Source: an uncultured Acidimicrobiales bacterium (GTDB lineage Bacteria; Actinomycetota; Acidimicrobiia; Acidimicrobiales; RAAP-2). From it: DNA of 24,000 nucleotides. Both the position numbers and the translations under genes were made by a program. Under the pieces are notes generated by a model. It did no database searches and was not told where the DNA came from. It was given only the letters and a program-made list of their open reading frames with translations. The stretch covers positions 151,367 through 175,366 of the forward strand of contig CAWDXZ010000007.1 in the NCBI GenBank assembly GCA_963806455.1, given 5' to 3'. Shown in pieces: positions 32 through 20,182 of the stretch. The first letter of the stretch is position 1, and every line of letters starts with the position of its first letter.

Positions 32-538
32 GTGGCCCCGGGACCACACGACAGCATCGACACGGTGACGGACGGGGCGGCGTCCCGCGCCCCGGGGGCG
101 CCCACCCCGGTCCCGGTGGTCAGGGTCGACCCCGGGCTGCCCCTGCCCGGGTATGCCCGAAGCGGTGATGCCGGGGCCGACCTGGTGGCCCGCACCGATG
201 CCATGCTCGCCCCCCGGGGCGGTCGGGCCATGGTCCCCACCGGTGTGTCGCTGGCCCTCCCCGAGGGGTATGCCGGCTTCGTGCAACCCAGGAGTGGATT
301 GGCCCTGCGCCACGGGGTCACCTGCCTCAACACACCCGGGCTCATCGACTCTGGCTATCGCGACGAGCTGGCCGTCCTGTTGGTCAACACCGATCCAGAG
401 CTGCCCTATGAGGTCCGGCGGGGCGATCGCATCGCCCAGCTGGTGATCCAGAAGGTGGAGCGGGCGGACTTCGTCGAGGTCGAGCGACTGCCGGCCAGCG
501 AACGTGGCCTCGGCGGCTTCGGGTCCACTGGTCGCTAG
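32..538 (+). CDS. dut: dUTP diphosphatase (dUTPase)
   Basis: 168-aa ORF. GTG at 32 follows GGAGGAG (21-27). The translation carries trimeric dUTPase motifs ([35 protein letters not shown]-terminal GGFGSTG) and resembles actinobacterial Dut along its whole length. No frame breaks. Confidence 0.93.
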
Positions 539-541
539 GAG

Positions 542-2080
542 GTGGAACGGCTGAGCGGACTGGACGGAGCCTTCCTGTCGTTCGAGTCCCCGACCATCCA
601 CCTCCACATCCTCGGTGCCCTGATCTTCGACCCGTCCGAGGTCGAAGGAGGAGTCGACTTCTGGCGGGTCCGCGACATGGTGGCCGACCGTCTGCACCTG
701 GTTCCGCCCTTCCGGAAGCGGATCGTGGAGGTGCCATTCGGGCTGCAACACCCTTCGATCGTCGACGATCCCGACTTCGACATCGACTACCACGTGCGCC
801 GGGTGGGCCTGCCCGCGCCCGGCGGCCTCGCCGAGCTGGCCGAGCTCGTGGCCGACATCGCCTCCCGCCCCCTCGACCGTCGGCGACCCTTGTGGGAGTT
901 CCACGTGGTCGACGGGCTGGCCCAGGGACGCCTGGCCCTGGTGCCCAAGGTGCACCACTCGATCATCGACGGGGTGTCCGGAGCGGAGATCCTCGCCGCG
1001 TTCTTCGACCTCTCGCCCGAGCCGGCGCCTCGCCGGCTGTTCGGCGGGGCGATGGGGTCCCGCCGGGCCGTTCGGACCCACCGGGGGACCCGGCCACCGG
1101 ACGAACCGGGACGGGCGGAGGCGGGGGAGACCGGCTTCGACCCGGGGTGGGCCGCCGATCCCCTGCCGGGCGAGATGGCAAGGTGGCGCGGGGTGTTGGC
1201 GTCGTTGCCCGCCCAGGCTGACGCACTGGTGCGCACGGCGTCGCGGACGGTGCAGGTAGCCCGAGGTCTCAGCCGGCACAATCGCGAGACGGCCCGCGAC
1301 GTACCCCCTTCGCCGTTCGAGGCGCCCGCCACTTCGATCAACCGGGCCATCTCGTCCCACCGGCGGGTGGCCTGGGCCGAATTGCCGATGAGCGATGTGC
1401 GGCGCATCCGGGAGATCCTCGGGGGGACGGCCAACGACGTGGTGCTCACCGTGGCCGCCGGCGCCATGCGCCGGTTCTTCGACGGCCGGGGAGAGGACCC
1501 GGGGAGCTCTCTGGTCGCGCTGGTGCCGGTCTCGGTCCGGTCCGAAACGGAGCGGGACGCGCTGGGGAATCGCCTGTCGGCCATGCTCGTCTCCCTTGCC
1601 ACGGGGGTGGCGGACGAAGCGGATCGCCTCCGGCACATCCAAGAGGACGTCCGATCGGCCAAGGAGCAGAGCCGTTTTCTCGGATCGGACGTGTTCGCCG
1701 GCTGGGCCCAGGCCGCGCTCCCCGCCGTGGCTTCGCGCATCACCAGGCTGGCGGCCAATCTGCGTCTGTTCGACCGCGTGCCTCCGGTGTTCAACCTCAT
1801 CGTCTCCAATGTGCCCGGCCCGGATTTCCCCCTCTATCTGGCCGGAGCCCGTCTGGTGTCGATGTACCCGCTCGGGCCGATCATCGAGGGTGCCGGGGTG
1901 AACATCACGGTCTTCTCCTACATGGACACCATGTACGTCGGGGTACAGGGCTGTTGGGACCTCGTCCCGGATATCGCCGCCATCGCTCAGGGGATGGCCG
2001 ACTCGCTCCGGGCGCTGGTCGCTGCCACCAACCGCCTGGCCCGGCCGGTGCCCTGGTGGCATGCGGAGTTGCCGGCTTGA
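542..2080 (+). CDS. wax ester synthase / diacylglycerol O-acyltransferase (WS/DGAT) family protein
   Basis: 512-aa ORF starting at GTG 542, directly after the dut stop (536-538) in the same frame. It has the HHSIIDGVSG (HHxxxDG) active-site motif, the N-terminal LSGLDGAFL and the C-terminal NVPGP...LYLAG motifs typical of WS/DGAT. No frame breaks. Confidence 0.88.
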   Translation: MERLSGLDGAFLSFESPTIHLHILGALIFDPSEVEGGVDFWRVRDMVADRLHLVPPFRKRIVEVPFGLQHPSIVDDPDFDIDYHVRRVGLPAPGGLAELAELVADIASRPLDRRRPLWEFHVVDGLAQGRLALVPKVHHSIIDGVSGAEILAAFFDLSPEPAPRRLFGGAMGSRRAVRTHRGTRPPDEPGRAEAGETGFDPGWAADPLPGEMARWRGVLASLPAQADALVRTASRTVQVARGLSRHNRETARDVPPSPFEAPATSINRAISSHRRVAWAELPMSDVRRIREILGGTANDVVLTVAAGAMRRFFDGRGEDPGSSLVALVPVSVRSETERDALGNRLSAMLVSLATGVADEADRLRHIQEDVRSAKEQSRFLGSDVFAGWAQAALPAVASRITRLAANLRLFDRVPPVFNLIVSNVPGPDFPLYLAGARLVSMYPLGPIIEGAGVNITVFSYMDTMYVGVQGCWDLVPDIAAIAQGMADSLRALVAATNRLARPVPWWHAELPA

Positions 2081-2210
2081 GGACGCACTCATGAGCACCG
2101 TACAGCTCTGGCCAGACCCGAAGACGCGCCCGGGCTTGGGGTCGAATGGCGGTGGATGACGACGCCGACCGGGGTCCGGCTGCGGCCGACTGCTAGGATG
2201 CTCGCTCTAC

Positions 2211-2283
2211 GCGGACGTGGCTCAGTTGGTAGAGCATCACCTTGCCAAGGTGAGGGTCGCGGGTTCGAGTCCCGTCGTCCGCT
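2211..2283 (+). tRNA. tRNA-Gly (anticodon GCC)
   Basis: 73-nt cloverleaf read by hand. Acceptor GCGGACG/CGTCCGC. D arm GCTCAGTTGGTAGAGC. Anticodon stem TCACC/GGTGA with loop TTGCCAA (GCC). T arm GCGGG-TTCGAGT-CCCGT. Discriminator T. CCA is not encoded. It marks the switch from housekeeping to accessory genes. Confidence 0.9.
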
Positions 2284-2681
2284 CTCGCCGAAGTCGCAGG
2301 TCATCGGCGGTTGTAGCGGTTGAAATCGGGCTGTGTCTGTCGGTCGTCTGATCCCGGTGTACCACATCCGCACCACATTTTTCTGCGATTTTTCGGCGAG
2401 CGGCCGTTGACCCTCACATTTTGCGTGTGATGCTCAACCGCTTGGTTTCCTAGCGACCAACACCGCCAGGCGTTCCAACATTCTTTGGTTTGCCCGAGCT
2501 GACAGTTGGCGCTCTGGGTGGCTTTGGTTCGTGGGGGCCGGGCTACCCGCTACGAGGGTGATCACGAGTTCGAAGTCGCTGGTCGGCCCTACGAGAAATT
2601 CTTAGTTCGGTCAGGCCCCAGCTGCGTCACATCTCTATGGGACCGCTTTCCGTCTAGCCGCGGCCCAGGAAGGAGGGCCAC

Positions 2682-2987
2682 GTGTCGAACGTGACCCCGT
2701 CAGAGATGCACCACCACGAGCACGCCGTTGAGGTAATCGTACGGAGCCCCGCCGGGACCCCGCACCCCTTCAGCTTCGGGTTCGACGAGCTTGGGGCGCA
2801 GGCCGCCGCCACGGCGATCGCCTACTTCGTGGGCAAGCACGAGATCGAGCCCGGGGACTACGCCCTCGAGCTCGTCCGTGACGGGGTTGCCACCCCGATC
2901 GCCGACACGGCACGGCTCAGCGACTACGACCTGCACAACGGTGACGAGCTGCGGCTCATCCCCGAGCAGCCCCAGGTCGACGGGTGA
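2682..2987 (+). CDS. ubiquitin-like (beta-grasp type) protein with free C-terminal Gly, BilA-like
   Basis: 101-aa ORF. GTG 2682 lies 5 nt after GGAGG (2672-2676). The protein ends ...LRLIPEQPQVDG-stop. Its stop overlaps the next start (GTGA, 2984-2987). It is the first gene of a Ubl-E2-JAB-E1 array. The fold assignment is inferred from size, terminal Gly and context, not from a search. Confidence 0.68.
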   Translation: MSNVTPSEMHHHEHAVEVIVRSPAGTPHPFSFGFDELGAQAAATAIAYFVGKHEIEPGDYALELVRDGVATPIADTARLSDYDLHNGDELRLIPEQPQVDG

Positions 2988-3400
2988 GCCTGCATCCGGC
3001 CCTACTGGTCGAGATGCTGGAAGAGGAGGTGTCGGTCGCCCGGGTTCGCCTGGGCGACCGCATCGCCGGGCTCGACATCGTCGGCACCGACATCATCTGC
3101 ACGCTGGAGGAGACCAGCGTGGGAACGGTATACCTGCGCTTCGCTGCGGCGGACTACGACGCGGAACCCATGAGCTTCGCCGTCGTCACCGAGAGCGGCG
3201 AGATCGCCGAGACAGCGAAGTGGCCAGGCCAGCTGTTCCACTCCATCCATCCCTCGCTCGAGCGCGCCATGGCGTGCGTCGCAGGGGACCTACGAGTATC
3301 ACAGCTTCCCGGGCACACGGCCGACCGCTGGGACGCCCATCGGCGCACGCTGCGCTTCCCCCATCTTCTGGACCACATCGTCACCAAGGCAGGCAAGTGA
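2984..3400 (+). CDS. E2-like ubiquitin-conjugating enzyme homologue (Prok-E2 / BilB-like)
   Basis: 138-aa ORF coupled to both neighbours. It contains FHSIHP(89-90)SLERAMAC(98)VAG. The HP-to-Cys spacing resembles the E2 HPN...Cys active site, with the Cys codon TGC at 3275-3277. It sits between the Ubl and JAB genes. Confidence 0.66.
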   Translation: MSLHPALLVEMLEEEVSVARVRLGDRIAGLDIVGTDIICTLEETSVGTVYLRFAAADYDAEPMSFAVVTESGEIAETAKWPGQLFHSIHPSLERAMACVAGDLRVSQLPGHTADRWDAHRRTLRFPHLLDHIVTKAGK

Positions 3401-3847
3401 TGCTCACCATCCCCATCGTCCATCCTCGTCGAGGCCCGTACGTTCTTCGAGGACCGCGGCGCGCTCGGGTGCGAAGGCACCGCCATGATCGCCGGCACCG
3501 ACGGCGTCGCCACCAAGCTCGTCATCCCCGAGCAGCACGCCAACCCCGTTCCCTATTGCTCGGTCGAGGTGACCCGGCAGGGCAAGAGCGAGCTCGCACT
3601 CGCCCTCGGCCCCGACGACCGCTACGTGGCGCGCATCCACAGCCACCCCGCCCTGGCCTTCCACAGCCCGACCGACGACGCCAACCCGGCCATCACCTAC
3701 CCCGGCGCACTGTCCATCGTCGTCCCCTTCTTCGGGCTCGGCCTTCGACGCGGTCTCGACGCCTGCGCCGTGCTAGTTCGCCGCGACCGGCGGTGGCTCG
3801 AGGTCCCCGCCGGCCCGGACCGCAACGACTTGGTGGTGGCACGGTGA
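3400..3847 (+). CDS. JAB/MPN (JAMM) isopeptidase, BilC-like; 5' end frame-disrupted
   Basis: ORF 3485-3847 carries the JAMM-like HSHPALAFHSPTDD, with H-x-H...S-x-x-D spacing one residue shorter than canonical. The same frame upstream reads ...ILVEARTFFEDRGALGCEGTAMIAG, which would supply the JAMM Glu, but has no canonical start. The coupled ATG at 3400 (TGATG with the E2 stop) is in another frame (MLTIPIV...). One +1 shift at about 3403-3425 is therefore needed. The stop overlaps the E1 start (GTGA 3844-3847). Confidence 0.72.
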
Positions 3848-5403
3848 GCGACCCGCGCCTTTCCTTCGGGCTCGGCGTCGTCATCGGCGCCGGCGACGCT
3901 GTTCTCGAAGCCCTCGACGGTCTCCGCCCAGTGATCCGGGTTGGAGTTGATGTCGACGCCCGTGCTGCGACGGCTGTGGCGGCGCTCTACTCGATGCTGC
4001 TCCGGCTCTTCCCCCACACCGTCCTCGAAGGCGACGCCACCCTCGGCGCCAATCCCTGGGGTGCGACCAGGCTCGGCGAACTCGTGGGCGTGCTCGCTGC
4101 GGCGCGGCCGACTCCGAGCCGGGGGCCCGACCGGGACTTCATCGTCGGCGTTGGCGCCGTCGTCGGTGGCGCCCAGCTGTGGATGGGTGGGGACGACTGG
4201 ACGGCGGACATCGGCCCGAGCCCCCGGGCCATCCGCGGCGGCCGGTTCGGCCTAGGTCTCCAGGCCGCGGCCGCCATGGTTGCGTCGGAGATCGCCAAGG
4301 TGGCGCTGGGTCCCCTCGGGATGCGCCACTACTCATCTCGGTGACGGCGTGGTCTGGAACCTGGCCGACTACCGCCGACGCCCGGCCCCCGACATGCCGC
4401 AGCACCGGACCGCTGCGCTGGACGTCGTGTTCTTCGGCACCGGCTCGGTGGGGTCGAGCGCGGCGGGAGTCCTCACGTGCATCGACGAACTGCACCGGGC
4501 ACGCAGTCCTCGTGGACGGCGACACCTTCGACCCGACGCGCAACACCTACCGCTACCCGACCTCCCTCGGCACGGAGACGGGACCAAAGGCCAGCTGGGT
4601 CAAGGACCTGCTCGTCGCCCGGGGCTGGACTGCCGACGATGTCGTCGGGTCGGCCTCGGACTGGGTGCGCTCGCAGCCCGCCCCGGGGTTCACCGGCATC
4701 GTCGTGTCCTCAGTGGACCGGCCCGACAGTCGCCTGCAGGTGGCCGACGCCATGGCAGCCACGACCCTGAGCGTTGGCGTCGACGGCCTGGCTCTGCACA
4801 TCCAGCGCGAGCACGTCTTCGACGACTTCGCCTGCCCCTACTGCGACTTCGTCTCCCTGGAGCCGCCCATGGGCCGGATCGACTCGTTGGCCGAGCTGCT
4901 CAAGCTCCCCCAGCCCCGAGTGGCACAGCTCCTGGTCGACGGCGACATGCTCACCGCGGCCAGACATCGCCATGGTGGTCGACGCCGGCAGGATCCGCGC
5001 CGAGCGCTCCGAAGAGCTGGTCGGCCGGCGCATCGAAGACCTCATCCGGCGGACGTACGCCGAGATCTCGGTACCCGACGTGGCCGGAGCTCCAACCGCG
5101 GTCAGCGCCGCATACGTCTCGTGGATGGGCGGCATCCTGGTCGCGGCCGAACTGACCAAGGCGGCCATTGGGCTGTCGATGGTGGACCGCCGCCTCGACC
5201 TGGATCTCTCGGGTATCCCGCTCGAGGGAGTTCGGCGTCGGCTTCGTGACACGAGCGGAAACTGCATCTGCGCTTCGCCGCAGCGGTGGCGTTGGGCGAC
5301 AAGACTGTACGGAGAGCGATGGAACTCGACGACCAACAGCGGGCGGGACTCGCGGCCGGAACCCCAGACTGGGCCGCCATCTACATCGGCTGCCGGACGG
5401 TGA
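3844..5403 (+). pseudogene. E1-like (ThiF/MoeB/UBA family) adenylating enzyme, BilD-like; three frame breaks
   Basis: The protein reads across frames 1>2>3>1, with breaks at about 4320-4345, 4490-4500 and 4960. The N-terminal roughly 165 aa is a degenerate Rossmann-like region. GTGSVG nucleotide loop lies at 4436-4453, then LVDGDTFDPTRNTYRY, CPYC (4833-4844), AVSAAYVSWMGGILVAAELTKA and CIC (5263-5271). The 3' end at 5403 is uncertain and overlaps the sigma gene start. Confidence 0.75.
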
Positions 5404-5932
5404 TGTGGCGGGCAGCCTGGCAGGTGCTCGGGCCCGATCACCACTCCACCTTGGGCACTTCCGCGGATGCGATCGTTCACGACACCATGGCGGAGCTGAT
5501 GGAGAAGTCCAACGAACGCGGCATCTCGGCCATCCCACCCGACGTGAAGAGCATCGATGCGTTCTTGTGGACGGCCACCCGGCGGCGCGCCCTGCCGCGT
5601 GGTCGAGCGCTCCCGACGCAAAGAGATGAAGCCGTTCCCCGAGCCCGGGGATCCGGGTGAACCTGCGGAGTTGAAGACGACCATCGAAGCATTTGAGGAC
5701 GCCCTGATCCTTGAGCAACTCGACTCCCATCTCCACAAGCTCACCGACAACGAGCGTCGAGCGTTCATCGGGTACTACAAGCAGGGCCGAACCTACGACG
5801 ACATCGGTGCTGAGCTCGGATGTCACTGACAGGGGGGCCTCCAAGCTGTGCGCGAGAGCCGTCCGTAAGCTGACCGCTGCGGCGGGCATCGAGGTGCACG
5901 AGGACCTGGAGGAGGAAGGAACAGATGGCTGA
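5286..5932 (+). pseudogene. sigma-70 family (ECF-like) RNA polymerase sigma factor; two frame breaks
   Basis: A region-2-like segment (...DAFLWTATRRRAL) in frame 3 continues as VVERSRRKE... in frame 1. This leads to the region-4 HTH LTDNERRAFIGYYKQGRTYDDIGAELG and then, in frame 2, VTDRGASKLCARAVRKL. Breaks lie at about 5585-5600 and 5818-5826. The start is either GTG 5286 or ATG 5319. The stop overlaps the next ATG (ATGGCTGA, 5925-5932). Confidence 0.62.
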
Positions 5933-6608
5933 CGACATCGTCGAAGGCCAGATCACAGAGCTCATCGAGTCCTACGTCGCCCACCTTGACGGAGCGGGAC
6001 CGGCACCTTCTCTCGACGGGCTCGATGCCGCCACTCAGCGTGAGGCCCGCAAAGCCTTTCGTGCCGTTGATGCCGCGTGGCGTAGCGACATCGAGATCCC
6101 TCCGCTTGAGGAGGATCCAGTCGCCCTCGCCTTGGGCTTCGTGCCCCGTCGCGACGCCGGAATCGTTCGTCGTCATCTCCGGCAAGTTGGTGAAGAGGGC
6201 GCGCCAGGGGCAGCGGGCTCAAGACGAGCGACGTTGCAAACCTCCTGAAGTCGGTGGGGCTGCCGGCCGCAGACCAGAAGTGGCTGGGCCGGCTCGAACG
6301 GGCACCCGTGCAAGAGGTCGCACTTGACGTCGCCACGGGACTCGCCAAGGTGCTGGGTGTCTCGCCCGACGCCATTCGCTGGCGCAGGACAAGGACGTCG
6401 GCCCATTCGCGGAGTGGCTGTATTCGGACGAGTTCGACGCAGCTGTTCGCCGCGTGGGTTGACGAACAAGCAGGTCGAGACGCTTCCCGTGGACCTCGCA
6501 CCCCGAGCACGGAGGGAGCTCCTCGCTGCGGCCCGCCGGAGCGACGGTGATGGAGGACCGGCCCTATGGGTGCAGATGCTCAGGTCCGTTCTCGACGAGT
6601 TGTCCTGA
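5925..6608 (+). pseudogene. XRE-family helix-turn-helix protein; about four frame breaks
   Basis: The HTH core reads ISGKLVKRAR..GSGLKTSDVANLLKSVGLPAADQKWLGRLERAPVQEVALDVATGLAKVLGVSPDAI. The full protein can only be read by switching frames 3>1>2>1>3 at about 6150-6170, 6208-6212, 6370-6376 and 6452-6458. It lies immediately upstream of an ImmA-type peptidase, the classic HTH/ImmA pairing. Confidence 0.55.
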
Positions 6609-6611
6609 GCC

Positions 6612-7654
6612 ATGCCCCGGTCTCTGCGCTCCGAGCCAACGAGCCCGAGGCGATGGGCTGATCGGCTGGTCGGTGCCCTCGACGCCGGGGTGCGTGATCG
6701 CCATCGCCAACGATCCGCGGCGCGCCATCGAGGAACACCTCGGTCTGCGGGTGGTCGAACAGGGGACCCTTGGCGAGCGCGGCAATGGCGGGTGGTGCGA
6801 TGGGCTGTCGATCCTCGACGAGGGCGTCATCTTCTTTGCCCCGACAGTGAACTCGAAGAGGGCGAACTTCACCCTCTGCCACGAAGTGGCGCACTACCTC
6901 GTCGAAGAGCACACGGACTCCGAGACGTTGGATTGGGTGGCAGATCAGGCGGATCCCGACCAGGTCATCGAGCACGTCTGCGACCTTGTCGCCTCCCGGC
7001 TATTGGTGCCCGACGCCATGGTTGCCGCCGTTCTCGAAGACGTCGGCCCCGGCGGCCCGGCGGTGGCCGAGCTGTTCGCCCAATCCGAGGCGTCCCGTGA
7101 AGTATGCGCGATCGCTCTGGCCGATCGACTGGGTTGCGATGGCTTCATCGCACTGATCAACCGGGACGAGGATGTCGTCACATTCGCCTCGCGTGCCCAC
7201 GAGGGCCGGCCCTATCCACCGCGCCGGGCTGCTGTGCCGTCAGGGCATCCGCTGCTGCGACTCTCAGATCGGCGAGTCGGCCACGGCCGAGGCGTGGTGG
7301 CCCTGGCCGGACGGTTCCCTACAGCCCTTCTACCAGAGCGCGCTGCGTGACGGTCGTTGGGTCTATGCCGTCCTCGCCGCCCACGACCTGTGGCAGGTGA
7401 CGCAGTTTCATCCCGCTCCCGCAGAGCGACCCACGGTGACGGTGCCGGAGGGAAGGCTTACATGTCCTTGTGGATACAGGGGCGCAGCCCGGGGGTTCCC
7501 GTGTTCGACCTGTCACAAGATCACATGTCCGGAGTGCCACGAGTGCGACTGCGACCGCAAGGAGCGCATCGCCCGGAAGCCGTGCAAGCGATGCACTGTG
7601 AGCGTCCCCGTGGCCCAGCTTGACGAGGACGGGTACTGCACGGGGTGCCAATAA
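6612..7654 (+). pseudogene. ImmA/IrrE-family (DUF955) zinc metallopeptidase with C-terminal Cys-rich zinc-ribbon-like domain; two frame breaks
   Basis: HEXXH motif in FTLCHEVAHYLVEEH. ATG 6612 lies 3 nt after the HTH gene stop. Frame 3>1 at about 6683-6690 (a GGGG run) and frame 1>2 somewhere in 7200-7265. The last 65 aa (7457-7654) contain 12 Cys arranged as six C-x(1-2)-C pairs. Confidence 0.7.
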
Positions 7655-8419
7655 CGCATCAAGGCGGACTGCTCTACTTGCGCAACGGATGGCACAGTCG
7701 ATCAAGTTGAGCTTGGGTGTAGAAAGCTGTCCCAATGAATCGATTTCAGGGGTCACAGTGTGGTGCATGATCCGGCCAAGGACCCGTCGGTCGCGGTGCG
7801 ATCCGCGATCGGAAGCAACTGAAGCATGGACTATCTTCGCCATGGCCTCTGCCGGTTCCGTCGGCTCGTACTCGGGGTATACCAGACCTTGGAGCACGTC
7901 TAGTGCCCGGATGTCGATTCCCTTTTCGATGATCGGGATGATAGGAACCCGTGGTCCTTCGCTATGCCGATCTCACGTACACCAAGTTCGTGCTCGTCGA
8001 CGTGATGAGCACGACAAACGCCTTACTCCGGTAAGTCGCCGCTCGGGCCTTTTCGGCGAGGAGCACTCCAGGCTGGGGGTTCCTTGGCGAGGTAGACGGT
8101 GATGCCAAGCACCTCAATCTGACGGGCTACCAGCTAGATGTGAGGCTTGTCGGTAGTTGAATGGCTGAAAATGCCTCGAGATGTGGCACGAGCGGCACCT
8201 GGCCCGGAGTGTTGCTGAACGTCAGCGGGGGCCACTTCTCAGGGGGCGTGACCAAGTGTGCGCGGTCATCGTTCAATTGTACGAGAAGGGTGTGCCGTGA
8301 GGCCGCTCAACGGTTTCGAGTGCCTTACGATCATTTTCGGCGCCCCTGTTGGTTCGAGAATTCCATCCGGAGCGACGACCACCCACCTTCTAGTGGAATG
8401 AACGAGCGACGGCTGACAG

Positions 8420-9760
8420 CTACACGCGCACGATGCGTTCGAGATCCTCGAGTTGTCGCCAGAGCTCGACGTGGGCCAGCCATCCGGCGAACTGGTCGTC
8501 CTCCGATCCGACCGGTCGTTCCTCTGTGTCGTGCTTGTGAGATGCGAGTGCGTCCCCCACCCCATCTCGCGAGACGAGGATGACTCCGAGTTGGTGGCGA
8601 CTGGTCATGACGCTGAGCCTGCCGGGCGCGAGCTCGAACATCGTGGGCTCCGGGATACCGGACAGTGTGTGCTTGGCCACCATGATCGGGCGTTGCAGGC
8701 CCTGCCAGACCTCGGCGGTGTTGGTCACCGTGTCGGGTCCAATGCCCAATCGACGGAGCCGCGACCGGACCTGCTCGTTGCTGGCAACGTGGGGATCGAC
8801 GTATCCCACATCCGCATCCGATAGCTGGCGGACACCGACCCAATCGGGTAACCGCTCGAGCATCCGCGCGATCAGGTGAGCCGAGAGTTCAGCCAGCTCG
8901 GGGTCGGACTCCGACAAGTCCCGGACCGAAGGGGGGAGCACGACGGCCACCATGCTGGCCCCCGCGGCAATGAGGTCGAGGACGGGATCGACTGGGTCAC
9001 CCATGCCCACGAGGCCGAAGGACAGACGGCGCTCCTCCGGATCCGGACCCGAGCGGAACGGTAGGTTCGGGTAGAAGGCGGGTTGGACAAGATTGACAGT
9101 GTCCTGCGGGAACCGCCATGTGGCCGGGAGGATCTCGTGCGGCAGGCCTGGGTGGCGGCGCAGCATTTCCCGGGGTGCGGCCCAATGGACCTTGTGGCGG
9201 GCAGCCTCGTAGCGTGCGAGGTCGCCACGGACCAGTGGACGCAACTGCCCAGGGTCCCCGACGAGCAAGCTCCGTGGTGCGAGGTGCAACAGCAGCATCA
9301 CGTCCTTGTAGGGCACCTGGTAGGCCTCGTCGCAGACGAGTAGGTCGAACTCGCCCTCCTCGAGCTGGGGCACCATTATCGAGGCCTTGCGCACCGTCAT
9401 TACGGTGATGGACCGATCACCGGGAAGATCGGCTGCCCGGGTGCCGAGCGTGATCTGCGGAGCACCGACAAACTCGGGTGGTGGTGGTCGCTCGGCCGAG
9501 TGGATGAGGGTGATGGGCACGGGGTAATCCCTGGCAAGTCGTCGGACGAGGTCGTAGACCTGCTCGTTCTGGAACGCAACGACGAGCGCCCTCGAACCTC
9601 CATCGGCGGCAACGGCGGCAACCATTTCCACCAAGTCGGTCTTCCCGGCGCCTGGGGGGCTGTCAACCACAACGGCATGGTGGTTCTCATGCAGCACGAG
9701 TTCGAGGATGCGGCGGCGAGCGTCCTCGTCCGCCTGGGCGATGGTCGGGGCGTCGATCAT
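8420..9760 (-). CDS. SF1 helicase-like ATPase (DNA2/Upf1- or RecD-like core, about 446 aa)
   Basis: Intact 446-aa ORF. Walker A SPPGAGKT (GAGKT at 9638-9652), Walker B/motif II LLVCDEAYQ, motif III VGDPGQL, then WRFP, QGLQRP and TSRH near the C-terminus. The ATG overlaps the upstream stop (ATGA, 9757-9760). It is the last gene of a four-gene operon. Confidence 0.85.
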   Translation of the reverse strand: MIDAPTIAQADEDARRRILELVLHENHHAVVVDSPPGAGKTDLVEMVAAVAADGGSRALVVAFQNEQVYDLVRRLARDYPVPITLIHSAERPPPPEFVGAPQITLGTRAADLPGDRSITVMTVRKASIMVPQLEEGEFDLLVCDEAYQVPYKDVMLLLHLAPRSLLVGDPGQLRPLVRGDLARYEAARHKVHWAAPREMLRRHPGLPHEILPATWRFPQDTVNLVQPAFYPNLPFRSGPDPEERRLSFGLVGMGDPVDPVLDLIAAGASMVAVVLPPSVRDLSESDPELAELSAHLIARMLERLPDWVGVRQLSDADVGYVDPHVASNEQVRSRLRRLGIGPDTVTNTAEVWQGLQRPIMVAKHTLSGIPEPTMFELAPGRLSVMTSRHQLGVILVSRDGVGDALASHKHDTEERPVGSEDDQFAGWLAHVELWRQLEDLERIVRV

Positions 9761-11169
9761 GGGCGTCGAAGCCTCCGTGCGCGGGCTAGGAGGTCGTCGG
9801 CAGGTGGTGGTACAGCCGGTTGCGGCGGCAGATCGTCCGCGAAGACGAGCGGCGTGTTGGCCGTCTGCATGGTTCGTCGGGCTCTGCCCATCTGCACACT
9901 GAAGTCAATGGGTGAGCTGTCGGTGAGCTCCAGGTCCATCCCCAACCTCCAACGATCGACGGTGCGGACCCCCGTCGAGACGTCGAAGGTCAAGAGCCGG
10001 TCGTCGCCGTCCTCGTTCTCGTCGATCAGGCGCAGATCGACGCTGTCCGTGATGGCGTGGAGCCGAGTGCCACGGCGGAGACGGAGCACTGGCTGGTCGG
10101 TACGGACGACCACGCTGCAGGGTCGGAACTTGGGCCGCCTGCCCCAGGTCACCGACTCGAGCGTGCCGGCGACGATCCGACCCTTGGAGCGGGCTACGCG
10201 ACGGGCGAAGCCGTCACCTCGGACGACGACATCCTCGGCCACATCGGCCGCATGCTCATTCTCGTCGACCATCCGGGCGAGAGCGGGCGCCCGGCTGGGG
10301 GGCGCCACCGGATTGGTGATCCGGTAGGCGAGCCGCTCCTTGCTCGCGGCGACGAGGGTCTCGATGCCAGGGAGTGGGGTGAGCGGCAGATCGAAGATGG
10401 CCCGGCGACACGCCATTAGCAGGTCCCACTCCGCTCGCGCCCCGCCACGCAGGAGCTCCTCGATCTCGGCCCGCGCTCGGGCAGCGGCCGCGTCGCGGCC
10501 TTTTGCGGTCCGCCGGAGTGCCTCGACGCGGTCGTCCACTTCACGCACGAGGACCCCACTGGCCGGCACGAGAGCACGCGCCTGGGCGGTCTCGAGGGCC
10601 GTACGGCCGTCGTCGGGCTCGACCCAGGCCAAGAGCGCCCCGAGGTGACCGTCCTCGACAGGTGACTGACCCGTGACCACGTGCTCACGCAGCACGTCGG
10701 CGCCCACCGCGACGGCTTGTTGGCCCTCGAAGCGAGCCTCCGTGGCGATGGTGATGCAGTGCCGACCCAGGGTACGCAGCTCCTCGGAGGCCTCACGGTT
10801 GGTCCGATAGCGGTGACCGAAGACCTCCATCAGGCTGAGGGCGCTCCCGTGGGGCAACCACACCCGGGGGAGTTCGTCGGCCGTGACCTGGTCGCGTAGG
10901 TACTGATCGAGCGAGACGGCCATGCGCTCGAGGCCCTCGACGTCGCGCGACAGCGGGTTCCAGCGCACCACCACGTCCGGCTCCTCACCGATGACACCGA
11001 AGGCGACAGACTGGAGGACTTCCTCGCTCACCATCTTGATCGGCGCGATCCCGAAAGCACGCGGGGGATCGTCGGCCAACCGGCGCGTCTCGACGACGGG
11101 CACGGCGCGGTCCTCTCGTCGGGCCACGAGGCGGGCCACCACGGTGGCGGTCTGGAGGGCCGAGGTCAT
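9757..11169 (-). CDS. hypothetical protein (470 aa), third gene of the nuclease-helicase cassette
   Basis: Intact ORF with ATGA overlaps at both ends (11166-11169 and 9757-9760). Codon usage matches its neighbours. I could recognise no catalytic or nucleotide-binding motif. It has a central Ala/Arg-rich helical-looking stretch (RRTAKGRDAAAARARAEIEELLRGG). Confidence 0.75.
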   Translation of the reverse strand: MTSALQTATVVARLVARREDRAVPVVETRRLADDPPRAFGIAPIKMVSEEVLQSVAFGVIGEEPDVVVRWNPLSRDVEGLERMAVSLDQYLRDQVTADELPRVWLPHGSALSLMEVFGHRYRTNREASEELRTLGRHCITIATEARFEGQQAVAVGADVLREHVVTGQSPVEDGHLGALLAWVEPDDGRTALETAQARALVPASGVLVREVDDRVEALRRTAKGRDAAAARARAEIEELLRGGARAEWDLLMACRRAIFDLPLTPLPGIETLVAASKERLAYRITNPVAPPSRAPALARMVDENEHAADVAEDVVVRGDGFARRVARSKGRIVAGTLESVTWGRRPKFRPCSVVVRTDQPVLRLRRGTRLHAITDSVDLRLIDENEDGDDRLLTFDVSTGVRTVDRWRLGMDLELTDSSPIDFSVQMGRARRTMQTANTPLVFADDLPPQPAVPPPADDLLARARRLRRP

Positions 11170-12236
11170 GCCAGTCGCCGCCGGAGTTCGACGGGCTGGA
11201 TCCCGACCAGGGGCGCCGCTTCCAACAGGGAACCGAGCAGGGCCTCCTCGTCATCGGTGGCCGGCTCGACCTCGCCCACGACCAGGGCTCGGACGTAGTC
11301 GAGATCCATTCCAGAGAGGAGCCGGCTGGCGGTGTCGCCGAGGAGGGCGGGCGTCTGGCCCGAGCGCTCGAAGCAGTGGGCGGCCATGACGCAGGACTGG
11401 TGGCAACCCTCGGTGGGGTGGATGGCCAGGTCGTCGACCAGGTTGGCCAGGTTCCCGCCCCCTTCGCGCTCGAGTTCGTCGAGGCGCTGGCGGACCCGAT
11501 CGATGACCTCGAGTGCTCGTCGGAGCTCCAGGATGGCACCGTCGAGGGCCTCCTCAGGCGGGTCGGCGGCCCGCAGGCCGAACGGGGTTGCCATCACGAA
11601 GATGGCCGTGTTCGAGACCCGGTCGCCAAGCCCGACCAACGTCGCCTCGGCTCGGAAGGCCAGGATCTGGGCGGCGGCCTGCCGGCGGGTCAGATCGAGG
11701 TCGGCCGGGTCGGCGATGTTGTCGCGGACGATGAAGGACTTCTCCTCACCGGGCTTGAAGAAGCCGGTCCGAGGATCGAGGACGGCGAAATCCGGGCTGA
11801 CGTACTCGAAGCAGCCCGGCGAGCCGGTCGGGAGGCACAGTTGCGGCTGGATCACGATGTCGGGCACCGCCCGACCGTGCGCCAGGTCGTCGAGGACCCG
11901 CCGGGTCCTGGTCAGCCGGACGGCACGCATGGTGTTGACCGGCCCCGGCACCTCGTCGGCGAAGTTACGAACCACCATCGTGTCGGGATCGCGCCCGACC
12001 AGCGGGCCGATGACGCGACGCAGCTCGGCGGCGTTGTTCTCGTGCAGGTGGGATTCGAACTTCGAGCCGCGACGGCGGGCGGCCACCCGTTCGCCGTATT
12101 CCTTCGGGTACTCCTCACCGGTGACGGCCCGGTAGAAATCGGGCTCGCGTACCCGTCGGACGGCCATGGCGGCCTGCAGGTCGCATTCGGGGTTCTTCGA
12201 GACCCTCACCAGGCCGCGGGTTCCTGAGAGGGTCAC
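11166..12236 (-). CDS. Cas4/RecB-like PD-(D/E)XK nuclease with putative 4-Cys (Fe-S) cluster
   Basis: GTG at 12236 overlaps the upstream stop (GTGA, 12233-12236), giving a 356-aa product. The longer 413-aa ORF in the track is an Arg/Pro-rich 5' extension. Nuclease motifs are GSKFE, SPD(149)FAVLD, GE(164)EK(166)SF (11739-11747) and RRQAAAQILAF (QxxxY-like). Cys18 plus C278-x3-C282-x5-C288 (11373-11405) mimic the Cas4/AddB cluster layout. Confidence 0.7.
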   Translation of the reverse strand: MTLSGTRGLVRVSKNPECDLQAAMAVRRVREPDFYRAVTGEEYPKEYGERVAARRRGSKFESHLHENNAAELRRVIGPLVGRDPDTMVVRNFADEVPGPVNTMRAVRLTRTRRVLDDLAHGRAVPDIVIQPQLCLPTGSPGCFEYVSPDFAVLDPRTGFFKPGEEKSFIVRDNIADPADLDLTRRQAAAQILAFRAEATLVGLGDRVSNTAIFVMATPFGLRAADPPEEALDGAILELRRALEVIDRVRQRLDELEREGGGNLANLVDDLAIHPTEGCHQSCVMAAHCFERSGQTPALLGDTASRLLSGMDLDYVRALVVGEVEPATDDEEALLGSLLEAAPLVGIQPVELRRRLA

Positions 12237-13003
12237 GACCCCGTCGCCTTTTCGCCCGGGGGGAGCAGGATCAGCGTCGAATCGGGGACGCCGAAGAGTC
12301 GACCGTGGTCGTCGAGACGTGCTGAGAGCTGGTCGGCGGCGACCTCGCGGTTGGTGCGATCCGTGGGCAGGAGCTCGTCGAGGAGCATCTCGGCAGCCAG
12401 GCGCCAAGTCTCGAGATCGAACTTGCCACGGCGCACCTCGAGGCCCGGCACGTCGCGGGCGTGGTCGGCGGCGAGGATGGCCATCATCTCGGGATCGACG
12501 ACGCGCTCATTGCCGCCGGCGATCCGACACAGGGCTGCCGTCATGTGGAGGTGCTGCACCCTCCCGGTCGTCGGCGCCACGACCCGCTCGGAGAGTGGCC
12601 AATCAGAACGCCCCCACAGGCGTTTGATCGCCTCCCCCCGGTCAGCCACCAGACCGTGACAAAGCCATACCGGCCGATGCCGGCCCTTGCCGAAAGCCGA
12701 AGCCTCGTCGTTGCTGAGAGATCCGAAACGGGTGGAGCTCAACTTGCGGCCGTAACGGGCTTGGGCGAAGAGCGCGAGCTCCCGCGAGAAGGCCATGGTC
12801 CCGAGGTCGGCGAGACTGTCGAGTAGGAGGTTCCGAACGGGAACCTGCCGCTTGGTTCCTCTGGCTGGCTCGTTCGGGCCTGCTGGAGCACTCGCCCTTC
12901 CGGACCCCGAGGCAAGGCGGGCGTCGATCTCCGCCAATTGTTGCGCCAGGCGGGCCCTCTCCCTCTCGAGCTCGACTTTCTCTTCATTGGCGAACTTGTC
13001 CAT
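12233..13003 (-). CDS. hypothetical protein (256 aa), first gene of the nuclease-helicase cassette
   Basis: Intact ORF starting at ATG 13003 with no Shine-Dalgarno sequence. The N-terminus looks coiled-coil (EEKVELERERARLAQQLAEIDARL), followed by a Gly/Pro/Ala linker and a roughly 190-aa domain with no motif I recognise. Its stop is coupled to the nuclease start. Confidence 0.7.
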   Translation of the reverse strand: MDKFANEEKVELERERARLAQQLAEIDARLASGSGRASAPAGPNEPARGTKRQVPVRNLLLDSLADLGTMAFSRELALFAQARYGRKLSSTRFGSLSNDEASAFGKGRHRPVWLCHGLVADRGEAIKRLWGRSDWPLSERVVAPTTGRVQHLHMTAALCRIAGGNERVVDPEMMAILAADHARDVPGLEVRRGKFDLETWRLAAEMLLDELLPTDRTNREVAADQLSARLDDHGRLFGVPDSTLILLPPGEKATGS

Positions 13004-13038: not shown

Positions 13039-13183
13039 TAGGTTTCTATAAGGCGTTGCGACGTTCGACGGTGAATGAGCGGCGAGCGATCCCCGCAACG
13101 CCGCTGACCAGGTCGGACGCTCACCTGCTGACCGGAACGTGCGTCTGCGCTCCGGGAGTTACACCCGTGTAGTTTGTCGACCA

Positions 13184-14337
13184 ATGGGAACGGGCTGGAG
13201 AGTGGCGGGGCTATTCGCGGGTATCGGCGGGATCGAGCTCGGACTGGAGCGAGCAGGGATGCATACCAAGGTGCTCTGCGAGCGCTGGGAGCCGGCCCGT
13301 GCCGTCCTCGAACACAGGTTCCCCGGCGTCCGACTGACCAACGACGTTCGTGAGCTGAAGAAGCTCCCAGCCGTGGATCTCGTGGCCGCCGGCTTCCGTG
13401 TACGGATCTCTCGCAAGCCGGACAGATGAAAGGCATCACCGGAGCGGCATCCGGACTGGTCGGAGAGGTCTTCCGGCTACTCGAGGGCCGACGAGTGCCG
13501 TGGGTCCTCCTGGAGAACGTTCGCAACATGCTGGTTCTCGATGGTGGCAGAGCGATGAGCTTCCTCGTCTCGGAGCTGGAGGCGCTCGGCTATCGCTGGG
13601 CGTACCGTCTAGTCGACTCGCGCTTCACGGGGGTCCCGCAGCGCAGGCAACGGGTGATCCTCGTTGCGACGACCGAAGGCGACCCCCGAGAAGTGCTCTT
13701 CGCCGACGACGCCGGGGATCCTGGCGACTCATGGTTCGAGTCGGACGTCCACGGCTTCTACTGGACGGAGGGCCTCAAGGGTCTGGGTTGGGCTCGTGAC
13801 GCGGTCCCCACGCTGAAGGGGGGATCGACGATCGGGATCCCCTCGCCACCGGCCATCTGGAACCCCCACGCACCCGCTGGCCAGCGGATCATCGTCCCTT
13901 CGGTGACTGAGGCCGAGCAGATGCAGGGCTTCGAGGTGGGATGGACGGCGCCATCGGACTTGGTCTCGGGCCGCAAAGGGACGCGTTGGAAGCTCGTGGG
14001 GAATGCGGTGACCGTCGGGGTCTCCGAATGGGTCGGGGATCGACTTCGGTCACCGGGTCGTTTCGAGGGACAGGCCCGACCGCTCGATGGATCCGATCCG
14101 TGGCCGAAGGCGGCATGGGGCGTCAACGGCGAACGGTGGGCGGTCGAGGTGTCCATGTGGCCGACCAACGAGCCGTATCGCCATCTCGGAGACGTCGTCG
14201 ACCTGGACGACGTGGTGCCACTGTCCCTGCGGGCCGCTGCGGGGTTCTACGAGCGGGCTATGCGCAGCTCACTGCGGTTCGACGAGCGATTCCTGGACGA
14301 CGTCGCCTCCCACATCGACGTCGTGACGGCGGCCTGA
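13184..14337 (+). pseudogene. DNA (cytosine-5)-methyltransferase; single frame break inside the catalytic PC motif
   Basis: Motif I LFAGIGGIELGL. In frame 2 the protein reads VAAGF and then runs off. Frame 1 reads PCTDLSQAG..., then ENV, QRRQRV and GNAVTVGV. GGCTTCCGTGT at 13391-13401 lacks one C of the expected GFPC codons, so the break is at about 13396. The start is ATG 13184 or GTG 13139. Confidence 0.85.
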
Positions 14338-18995: not shown

Positions 18996-20182
18996 TCACC
19001 TGAACTCGCTCGTCCAGCAATGGGACAATCTCCTACCCCAGAGGCAAAACGAGCTACGGCCGGAGTGCGACAACCTCAGCTGTGCATCGGAGCATCTCGC
19101 AGCTTGAGCGTCCCGCCAGGTGGCGTCGAGGCCGTCCCGCAGCCGCTCGTCGAGCGTGGGCAGCAGGTGCCCGTAGCGGTCGAAGGTGAGCTGGATGGTC
19201 GAGTGCCCGAGTCGCTCCTGGATCTCCTTGGGATGCGCGCCCTGGGCGATCAGCAGCGCCGCGCAGGTGTGGCGGAGGTCGTGGAACCGGAGTGCTGGCG
19301 GCAGTCCGGCCCGGTCCACCGCCGGCTTGTAGTGGCGAGGGTAGAAGCTGCGTCGGAGCGGTCCCCCGTTGAGCAGCGCGTGAAGACGTAGCCGTCCTCG
19401 GACGGGAATCGTGGCCAGGTGCTCGGCCAAGAGTCTCGGCCAGGAACCGGGGAATCGACACCGTACGGGACTTGCCCGTCTTGGTCGGCCCGGTTCGCAC
19501 CGTGCCGTTCACCTCGGTCAGCGCCTCGATGACGTCGATCGTGCCCCGGAGCAGGTCGAGCCGAGGAATCCGGAGCCCGGCCAGCTCGCCCCACCGCATG
19601 CCGGTGTAGGCGGCGGTGTAGATGAGCACCCGGTAGCGGTCGTCGATGGACTCGGCCAGGCGGCGGACCTCCTCCGGGGTGAGGAAGCACTGCTCGGTGT
19701 GGCTGGTCTGGCGGGGCAGGCGGATGCCCCGGCACGGCGTCCGGGGGATGACGCCGTCGGTCTCCGCCGTGGCGAAGATCCGGGAGAGCACCCGGTAGAT
19801 GCCCGCCACGGTTGACGGCGCCAGGCCCTTTTCGACCAGGTCGGCGACGAAGACCCGGACGTCGGCCGGTTCGATCCGCCCGATCTGCCAGGTCCCGAAC
19901 GCCGGGAGGATGTGGCATTCGAGATTCGAGTCGACATTGTTCAGGGTGCCCGGGCGAAGATGGGCGAGCGACGCTCGCCACCGGGCGGTGTAGCCGGAGA
20001 AGCGGACCTTGGCCAGGGAGGGGTCGGTCCAGGTGCCCTTGGGCCAGGTCGGTCTCGACCGTCCCGAGATAGGCCCGCGCCTCGGCCTTGGACGGGAACG
20101 TCCGGGTGCGCTGGCGCCCGGAGCGGTCCCGGTAGCGGGCCTGCCAACCGGTGCCCCGGGCGTCCTTCCTTACCGAGCCCAT
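18996..20182 (-). pseudogene. int: tyrosine recombinase (phage/ICE integrase); at least four frame breaks
   Basis: ATG 20182 follows GGAGGAG. The N-terminus reads MGSVRKDARGTGWQARYRD...DLAQG, then after a shift at about 20033 TWTDPSLAKVRFSGYTARW... It has a core-binding domain and a catalytic domain with MRWGELAGL, HDLRHTCAALL, LGHSTIQLTFDRYGHL (R..HxxR..Y). Further breaks lie at about 19437, 19409 and 19383. Confidence 0.85.

What the first reader, a model, noticed from the sequence alone, without database searches (positions are those of the whole stretch)
3400..7654. Frame-riddled block next to frame-perfect blocks: about 12 single-base frame breaks in 4.2 kb
Reading the proteins by eye requires a frame switch at each of these approximate positions.
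- JAB: 3403-3425.
- E1: 4320-4345, 4490-4500 and 4960.
- Sigma factor: 5585-5600 and 5818-5826.
- XRE protein: 6150-6170, 6208-6212, 6370-6376 and 6452-6458.
- ImmA: 6683-6690 and 7200-7265.

Most breaks behave as one extra base, often at short homopolymers. In contrast, 32-3400 and 8420-13003 have none.

Two explanations are possible.
- The Bil/regulator module is a decaying pseudogene array while the four-gene cassette is kept by selection. That would be indirect evidence that the cassette is functional.
- The record is a mosaic of well-polished and poorly polished sequence, for example long-read gap fill. In that case all these genes may be intact in the organism.

Every functional claim in this region depends on which explanation holds.
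Basis: seen in the sequence. Interest (0 to 1): 0.6.

Follow-up and report, generated by a model that had tools for sequence, protein, structure and literature searches.

The report
Assembly insertion errors, not decaying genes
The frame breaks are really in the record, but they are almost certainly single-base errors of a patchy long-read metagenome assembly, so the defence and regulator genes here are probably intact in the organism.

Summary
Two intact syntenic loci from short-read assemblies (L011, 94% identical; L012, 81%) agree with each other and differ from the window at 18 single-base indels between 3280 and 7270. Sixteen are extra bases and two are missing bases.

The breaks are not at homopolymers.

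The pseudogene reading fails:
- The window's own lineage has 30 synonymous and 13 non-synonymous changes (pN/pS 0.15).
- It has no in-frame stop and no deletion longer than 1 nt.

The same error signature occurs elsewhere in this 8-contig MAG. The island's integrase has four single-base insertions. A housekeeping phoH-ybeY-era stretch on contig C1 is also broken, while the assembly holds a clean alternative copy of it on contig C8. A well-assembled congener shows no such clusters.

Verdict: consensus errors in a low-coverage or strain-variant segment (about 0.88). No conclusion about selection on the neighbouring cassette can be drawn. Earlier notes on this genome had flagged the JAB and methylase breaks.

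The parts
2211..2284 (+). tRNA-Gly(GCC). It marks the border between housekeeping genes (dUTPase 32-538, WS/DGAT 542-2080) and the accessory island.
   Evidence: ARAGORN; Pfam.
2682..2987 (+). Ubiquitin-like protein gene (BilA-like), 101 aa, ending in Gly. It has no indel against either relative.
   Evidence: tblastn gives 87% identity to the L012 Ubl over residues 1-101 in one frame. The three-way alignment shows no window-specific gap within the gene, 2682-2987.
2984..3400 (+). E2-like gene (BilB-like), 138 aa. The frame is open, but an extra base at 3280 and a missing base at 3310 put nine codons out of frame.
3400..3847 (+). JAB/JAMM deubiquitinase-like gene (BilC-like). The ATG at 3400 overlaps the E2 stop. 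One extra base at 3416 separates the start (MLTIP) from the rest of the protein.
   Evidence: Relatives 82-93% identical (alignment A1) start MLTIPxSILVEAR; most are 148 aa, one 149. Alignment. PADLOC BilC 4.4e-7 on the L012 protein. Pfam Prok-JAB.
3844..5403 (+). E1-like gene (BilD-like). Extra bases at 4335, 4495 and 4960 move the frame 1 to 2 to 3 to 1. All 518 residues of the intact relatives are covered.
   Evidence: tblastn HSPs cover residues 1-166, 157-217, 205-372 and 373-518. Alignment.
5403..5932 (+). Sigma-70 region 4 protein gene. Extra bases at 5595 and 5820 break the frame. Three extra bases at 5663, 5665 and 5683 are net in-frame.
   Evidence: Pfam Sigma70_r4 on the intact L011 protein, 2.7e-8.
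5925..6608 (+). XRE/HTH protein gene (226 aa in relatives; CapH-like partner of the peptidase). Extra bases at 6159, 6212, 6446 and 6479; missing base at 6375.
   Evidence: Weak Pfam HTH_31 on the L012 protein.
6612..7654 (+). ImmA/IrrE (Peptidase_M78, CapP-like) gene, 346 aa in L012. Extra bases at 6697 and 7270.
   Evidence: tblastn frames 3 to 1 to 2. Pfam Peptidase_M78 3.2e-7. PADLOC CapP 1.3e-16.
3280..7270 (.). The error-rich block: 18 single-base indels in 3991 nt, about one per 220 nt, of which 16 are insertions.
8420..13003 (-). No lasting frame switch was seen by HMM.
   Evidence: Pfam AAA_30/AAA_11 on the first ORF. No close comparator was examined here.
19054..20182 (-). Tyrosine integrase of the ICE-like block. 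It carries four window-specific single-base insertions (20043, 19434, 19409, 19380) against two intact 373-aa relatives. This is a second error-rich block.

Best explanation
**What it is.** The 3280-7270 block is a stretch of poor consensus in a long-read metagenome-assembled genome. The underlying DNA most likely encodes seven intact genes:
- a Bil-type operon (Ubl, E2, JAB, E1);
- a sigma-70 region 4 protein;
- an XRE/CapH-like repressor;
- an ImmA/CapP-like metallopeptidase.

**How it arose (inferred).** The assembler's contig path here follows a segment supported by few reads. The segment may be low coverage, or it may be the minor branch of a strain bubble. Random single-base insertions from raw reads therefore survived consensus and polishing. 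Neighbouring segments, supported by more reads, are clean.

**Shown:**
- the indels are specific to this record;
- they are almost all +1;
- they come without signs of relaxed selection;
- the same signature occurs in unrelated genes of the same assembly, including a housekeeping operon for which the assembly holds a clean alternative copy.

**Inferred:**
- the cause (low depth and/or strain mixture);
- the sequencing platform;
- that the genes are intact in vivo.
For: 1. **Derived indels.** All 18 indels are absent from both L011 and L012, which agree with each other. Those two carry full-length ORFs of equal length: E1 518 aa, XRE 226 aa, JAB 148/149 aa. L011's twin contig is a SPAdes short-read node.
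2. **Spectrum.** There are 16 insertions and 2 deletions, all of 1 nt (binomial P = 0.0013). None lies in a homopolymer of 3 or more.
3. **No decay signal.** Substitutions were polarised with L012 as outgroup over 1162 codons of JAB to ImmA-N.
   - The window lineage has 30 S and 13 N (pN/pS 0.15), with no in-frame stop.
   - The L011 lineage has 47 S and 64 N (pN/pS 0.48).
   - Measured bacterial indel-to-substitution ratios are about 0.2 (regression in Fig. 3 of PMC4978911) and 0.35 at the high end (PMC8717266).
   - At those ratios, 18 real indels predict 38-66 non-synonymous changes. The Poisson probability of 13 or fewer is 3e-6 to 1e-15.
4. **Same signature in the integrase.** The island's integrase has four window-specific 1-nt insertions against two intact 373-aa relatives.
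5. **Internal control.**
   - Contig C8 (13.6 kb) duplicates C1:778702-792269.
   - The two are near-identical over 778.7-785.5 kb.
   - All 38 indels lie in 785.5-792.3 kb, 37 of them from 786 kb on, where the copies diverge. In 25 of them C1 has the extra base.
   - phoH and ybeY are split across frames in C1, and era's G domain and KH domain lie in separate coding segments. phoH and ybeY are whole in C8.
6. **Distribution.**
   - The codon HMM finds 74 of 2564 4.5-kb windows with 4 or more frameshift-like junctions in this genome.
   - Three of the top eight clusters lie within 7 kb of contig ends.
   - There is a run of +1 shifts at C7:176-182 kb.
   - A 96%-complete congener shows none in 165 windows.
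7. **Background.** Long-read consensus indels that break gene calls at low coverage are well documented (PMC9262707; 10.1101/2021.08.23.457338).
Against: - The inference is comparative only.
- No independent contig from the same population was found.
- The errors are not at homopolymers, which is the hallmark usually cited for Nanopore consensus errors (PMC9262707).
- Five or six of the 16 insertions create an ATC/GAT triplet, against 0.7-1.0 expected (post hoc P about 3e-4). I cannot explain this bias, and it is not seen among the 25 C1 insertions.
- A degenerating mobile island could plausibly carry a broken integrase and broken regulators.
- Block edges inside genes (3280, 7270) are not predicted by any specific assembly model that I could test.
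Confidence: 0.88

Rival explanations
1. True pseudogene array. The Bil-type operon and its three regulators were inactivated in this strain and are decaying by accumulated frameshift mutations, while flanking modules are kept by selection.
For: - The block lies on a composite accessory island next to tRNA-Gly.
- Other genes on the island, the integrase and the C5 methylase, are also broken.
- Defence genes are often lost.
- No reads were available to exclude real mutations.
Against: - Window-lineage pN/pS is 0.15, with no nonsense codon in 1162 codons.
- Eighteen indels against at most 13 possibly neutral non-synonymous changes need an indel rate at or above the substitution rate. Measured ratios are about 0.2-0.35 (PMC4978911, PMC8717266).
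- The spectrum is 16 insertions to 2 deletions, all 1 nt. Bacterial pseudogenes show a deletion bias and a range of indel sizes (PMC2817411, PMC6054270).
- The same signature is found in phoH and ybeY on C1, with era's domains also in separate segments, while intact phoH and ybeY sit on C8.
Confidence: 0.08
2. Real but recent burst of +1 insertions from a local mutational process, for example error-prone repair synthesis across this segment. It would be too recent for substitutions to have accumulated.
For: - The spectrum consists almost only of insertions.
- There is an unexplained excess of insertions that create ATC/GAT.
- The substitution pattern is compatible with very recent inactivation.
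Against: - I know of no process that makes about one +1 insertion per 220 nt over 4 kb without base substitutions.
- The same signature appears in at least two other separate blocks: the integrase and C1:786-792 kb. The codon HMM suggests a third at C7:176-182 kb, which was not checked against relatives.
- The housekeeping block has a clean twin contig.
- The ATC bias is post hoc and was not replicated on C1.
Confidence: 0.03
3. Recoding. The breaks are read through by programmed ribosomal frameshifting or transcript slippage.
For: Most breaks go in one direction.
Against: - Close relatives encode the same proteins in single open frames, with no break at any of the sites.
- The 16 insertion contexts share no slippery motif.
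- Thirteen recoding events in five genes have no precedent.
Confidence: 0.01

Closest known systems
Consensus indel errors in long-read (meta)genome assemblies that fragment gene calls (PMC9262707; proovframe preprint 10.1101/2021.08.23.457338; Kastor, PMC12007338)
   Same: - Single-base indels break otherwise conserved ORFs.
- They are clustered where support is poor, at contig ends and in a strain bubble.
- Essential genes are affected too.
- Relatives from short-read assemblies are intact.
   Different: - The errors are insertions at non-homopolymer sites, not the homopolymer indels usually described for Nanopore consensus.
- The platform and read depth of this assembly are unknown to me.
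Bacterial pseudogene decay (PMC2817411, PMC6054270, PMC2916853)
   Same: Several neighbouring accessory genes each have multiple frame breaks.
   Different: - There is no relaxed selection, no nonsense codon and no deletion bias.
- No indel is longer than 1 nt.
- The same pattern occurs in housekeeping genes that have a clean duplicate in the assembly.
Bil (bacterial ISG15-like) anti-phage system BilABCD (10.1101/2023.09.04.556158; 10.1101/2023.09.26.559546), with CapH/CapP-type regulators as modelled in PADLOC
   Same: - The gene order is Ubl, E2, JAB, E1, with overlapping stops and starts.
- The Ubl ends in Gly.
- The JAB protein has the HSHP...D JAMM motif and matches PADLOC BilC.
- The downstream M78 peptidase matches PADLOC CapP.
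   Different: - Only BilC of the four PADLOC Bil models matched, and weakly.
- A sigma-70 region 4 gene sits between the operon and the regulator pair.
- Function was not tested here, and this system is only the context of the finding.

Membership tests
Long-read assembly consensus errors | Frame breaks are short indels specific to this record and absent from close relatives. | tested here: met
   There are 18 one-base indels, absent from both L011 and L012.
Long-read assembly consensus errors | The sequence between the breaks still evolves under purifying selection and has no nonsense codons. | tested here: met
   Window lineage 30 S and 13 N, pN/pS 0.15, no stops.
Long-read assembly consensus errors | The same error type affects unrelated and essential genes in the same assembly. 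| tested here: met
   phoH and ybeY are split on C1, and era's domains lie in separate segments there; intact phoH and ybeY are on C8. The integrase carries 4 insertions.
Long-read assembly consensus errors | Raw reads or independent accurate reads disagree with the consensus at the sites. | not testable with these tools
No contig from the same population was found.
Long-read assembly consensus errors | Errors concentrate in homopolymers (the Nanopore hallmark). | tested here: not met
   Six of 16 inserted bases equal a neighbour, against 7.4 expected. None lies in a run of 3 or more.
True pseudogene array | Relaxed selection on the broken lineage (pN/pS approaching 1, nonsense codons). | tested here: not met
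   pN/pS is 0.15 and there are no stops in 1162 codons.
True pseudogene array | Indel spectrum typical of bacterial decay (deletion bias, varied sizes). | tested here: not met
   The spectrum is 16 insertions to 2 deletions, all 1 nt. Reference patterns are in PMC2817411 and PMC6054270.
True pseudogene array | The indels are fixed in the population's DNA. | not testable with these tools
   No reads were available.
Bil (BilABCD) system | Four-gene operon: Ubl, E2, JAB deubiquitinase, E1. | tested here: inconclusive
   - The order and sizes match in the window and in intact L011 and L012.
- PADLOC matches BilC only, at 4.4e-7. BilA, BilB and BilD gave no hit.
- Pfam Prok-JAB falls below its cut-off.
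Programmed frameshifting | The break and a slippery site are conserved in relatives. | tested here: not met
   Relatives have single open frames at all sites.

The most novel reading that the evidence does not exclude
The insertions are real. In that case a minor strain's Bil-type defence operon and its sigma/CapH/CapP-like regulators were knocked out very recently by a locally acting process that is prone to +1 insertions. Its preference for creating ATC/GAT triplets would be a new mutational signature.
Probability: 0.04. Interest if true: 0.5.

Novelty: not a real feature. Interest (0 to 1): 0.1.

Why it matters
The value is practical.
- The Bil-type operon, the sigma factor and the CapH/CapP-like pair in this window should be treated as intact genes when their function is discussed.
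- The contrast between 'riddled' and 'perfect' blocks says nothing about selection on the neighbouring four-gene cassette.
- Open frames in this record can hide errors. The E2 gene has nine scrambled residues without any frame break.
- Other broken genes in this MAG deserve the same suspicion. These include the integrase, the C5 methylase, the conjugation genes at C7:176-182 kb and the contig ends.
- Pseudogene counts taken from such MAGs would be inflated.

Tried and rejected
- **DNA search of 40 relatives' genomes with the block.** Only spurious short matches were found, and there is no second copy in the window's own genome.
- **Search for an independent assembly of the same population.**
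  - The metagenome and genome scans with the intact E1 returned only L011's twins and more distant loci.
  - An exact look-up of the window's Ubl protein found nothing on record.
- **Genome-wide insertion bias from the codon HMM.** No bias was seen (335 against 318). About 1 junction per 10 kb is method noise, as the congener control shows. The HMM was therefore used only to locate clusters.
- **Homopolymer association.** Rejected.
- **Methylation-motif explanation for the ATC/GATC contexts.** Considered because the island carries three methylase genes. It was not replicated among the C1 insertions and is left unexplained.
- **Recoding.** Rejected because relatives lack the breaks.
Full report
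**Setting**

The window is G000:C7:151367-175366. G000 is an 8-contig, 3.88-Mb, roughly 70% GC metagenome-assembled genome with completeness 92% and contamination 2.5%. Multi-copy IS elements are resolved at 99% identity or more. Many congeners have few contigs but modest completeness. Both points fit long-read assemblies, though this is an inference.

The intact syntenic relatives of this locus come from Acidimicrobiales or Acidimicrobiaceae MAGs.

In the window, housekeeping genes (dUTPase, WS/DGAT) end at a tRNA-Gly at 2211-2284. Everything after that is accessory DNA.

Yes. A GC3 frame plot and stop-to-stop ORFs show the coding frame stepping repeatedly on the + strand between 3400 and 7650.

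A search with the JAB frame found relatives up to 96% identical. Two of them sit on contigs that carry the whole locus with every gene intact:
- L011 is NCBI DAHVFF010000186.1, 94.3% identical to window 2783-6922. Its twin contig is a SPAdes node.
- L012 is JGI Ga0453630_0017301, 81% identical to window 2596-7657.

Both carry Ubl (101-107 aa), E2 (138), JAB (148/149), E1 (518), a sigma-70 region 4 protein (174/198), an XRE protein (226) and an M78 peptidase (346).

A three-way alignment shows 18 single-base differences that are specific to the window. The two relatives agree with each other at all of them.
- Extra bases: 3280, 3416, 4335, 4495, 4960, 5595, 5663, 5665, 5683, 5820, 6159, 6212, 6446, 6479, 6697 and 7270.
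- Missing bases: 3310 and 6375.

tblastn with the intact proteins gives the matching chain of frames and covers every residue of every protein. E1, for example, runs through frames 1, 2, 3 and back to 1. Nothing is deleted or truncated.

Three refinements apply:
- The three extra bases at 5663-5683 are net in-frame. They could be three more insertions or one real codon insertion.
An extra base at 3280 and a missing base at 3310 replace the conserved QGTYEYHSF with AGDLRVSQL without breaking the frame.

The statement that breaks sit 'often at short homopolymers' does not hold. Six of 16 inserted bases equal a neighbouring base, against 7.4 expected from random placement. None lies in a run of three or more.

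**Decay or artefact?**

Four lines of evidence bear on this.

1. *Spectrum.* There are sixteen insertions and two deletions, all of one base (binomial P = 0.0013). Bacterial pseudogenes show a bias towards deletions and a spread of indel sizes (PMC2817411, PMC6054270).

2. *Substitutions.* I used L012 as outgroup and assigned substitutions to lineages over 1162 gap-free codons of JAB, E1, sigma, XRE and the N-terminal part of ImmA.
   - The window lineage has 30 synonymous and 13 non-synonymous changes (pN/pS 0.15) and no in-frame stop.
   - The XRE gene, with five indels, has 6 synonymous and 0 non-synonymous changes.
   - The intact L011 lineage has 47 synonymous and 64 non-synonymous changes (pN/pS 0.48).
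   - Measured indel-to-substitution ratios in bacteria are about 0.2 by the regression in Fig. 3 of PMC4978911. An explicitly indel-rich species reaches 0.35 (PMC8717266).
   - Eighteen real indels would then come with 51-90 neutral substitutions, of which 38-66 would be non-synonymous. The probability of seeing 13 or fewer is 3e-6 to 1e-15.
   - The block therefore looks like a set of genes under purifying selection onto which single extra bases have been sprinkled.

3. *Other genes in the window.* The island's tyrosine integrase (19054-20182, minus strand) is split across frames. It carries four window-specific one-base insertions relative to two intact 373-aa relatives, L028 and L029. The C5 cytosine methylase is split at about 13426.

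4. *The rest of the assembly.* I trained a codon-usage HMM on 968 long ORFs of this genome and decoded all contigs.
   - Most 4.5-kb windows have 0 or 1 frameshift-like junctions, but 74 of 2564 have four or more.
   - Three of the top eight clusters lie within 7 kb of contig ends (C2, C3, C6).
   - Two lie on C7 just beyond or inside the window. One of them is a run of about 17 successive +1 steps through conjugation genes at C7:176-182 kb.
   - In 300 kb of a 96%-complete, 3-contig congener, the same HMM gives about 1 junction per 10 kb, which is its noise level. No window there has more than three.

The most telling cluster is C1:786-792 kb.
- There phoH is split at Pfam profile position 92/97 and ybeY at 63/67. 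The G domain and the KH domain of era lie in separate coding segments.
- The small contig C8 holds full-length phoH and ybeY.
- C8 aligns end to end with C1:778702-792269 at 98.28% identity.
- The two copies are nearly identical over 778.7-785.5 kb. All 38 indels lie in 785.5-792.3 kb, 37 of them from 786 kb on, where the copies diverge by 1.3-5%. In 25 of them C1 has the extra base, again at non-homopolymer sites.
- The mismatches there are mostly third-position (113 synonymous against 65 non-synonymous).
- So the C1 segment is a real strain variant whose consensus is poor, and C8 is the clean branch of the same bubble.

This shows directly that the assembly writes low-support strain-variant segments with exactly the error signature seen in the finding.

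**Best explanation**

The block 3280-7270 is a poorly supported stretch of consensus, either low depth or the minor branch of a strain bubble. The seven genes are most likely intact in the organism. I put this at about 0.88.

The remaining doubt has three sources:
- No reads could be examined.
- No independent contig of the same population was found.
- One feature is unexplained. Five or six of the sixteen insertions create an ATC/GAT triplet, against 0.7-1.0 expected (post hoc P about 3e-4). This bias is absent from the 25 C1 insertions.

**What the genes are (context only)**

The operon has the Bil order Ubl, E2, JAB, E1, with overlapping stops and starts.
- The Ubl ends in Gly.
- The JAB protein has the HSHP...D motif and matches PADLOC BilC at 4.4e-7.
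- The other three Bil models did not match.

Downstream lie a sigma-70 region 4 protein, an HTH protein and an M78 peptidase. The peptidase matches PADLOC CapP at 1.3e-16. The arrangement is conserved in L011 and L012. Bil systems are described in 10.1101/2023.09.04.556158 and 10.1101/2023.09.26.559546. I did not test function.

**Verdict**

The pseudogene interpretation, and the inference it offered about selection on the four-gene cassette, are not supported. The finding is an assembly artefact of low intrinsic interest. It is a useful warning for every functional claim made on this record.

Noticed in passing
window 3280-3310: The E2-like gene stays open but carries a compensated +1/-1 pair. 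Nine residues that are identical in both relatives (QGTYEYHSF) read AGDLRVSQL. Open frames in this record can therefore still be wrong.
   Followed up: yes
window 19054-20182 (-): The tyrosine integrase of the ICE-like block has four window-specific single-base insertions (20043, 19434, 19409, 19380) against two intact 373-aa relatives. The neighbouring HTH_17 and two N6_N4 methylase genes also switch frames by HMM.
   Followed up: partly
window 13139-14334 (+): The C5 cytosine methylase is split between two ORFs at about 13426. Pfam DNA_methylase positions 2-69 lie in one ORF and 81-165 in the next. The HMM suggests a -1 shift here, not +1.
   Followed up: partly
G000 C8:1-13556 and C1:778702-792269 (L014 = C1:786500-793000): C8 is an alternative copy of a C1 segment, 98.28% identical. 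The divergent half of the C1 copy has 38 indels that split phoH and ybeY and separate era's domains, while C8 has long open coding segments and full-length phoH and ybeY. This looks like a strain bubble kept twice in the bin.
   Followed up: yes
L018 = G000 C7:175367-183000: Conjugation genes (TraC-like, TraG P-loop-like) just downstream of the window show a run of about 17 successive +1 frame steps by the codon HMM. This was not checked against relatives.
   Followed up: partly
window 3416, 4335, 5683, 5820, 6697, 7270: Five or six of the 16 inserted bases create an ATC/GAT triplet, four of them ATCG. Random placement predicts 0.7-1.0 (post hoc P about 3e-4). The bias is not seen among the 25 insertions on C1 and remains unexplained.
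   Followed up: partly
G000 C2:1-6500, C3:1-3200, C6:1-4300: Dense frame switching by the codon HMM within a few kb of three contig ends, in adenylate-cyclase/LuxR-type regulator genes and others. This fits poorly supported contig ends.
   Followed up: no
window 5403-7654; L011:2736-4251; L012:4496-6806: A sigma-70 region 4 gene, an HTH gene and a CapP-like M78 peptidase gene follow the Ubl-E2-JAB-E1 operon in the window and in both intact relatives.
   Followed up: partly
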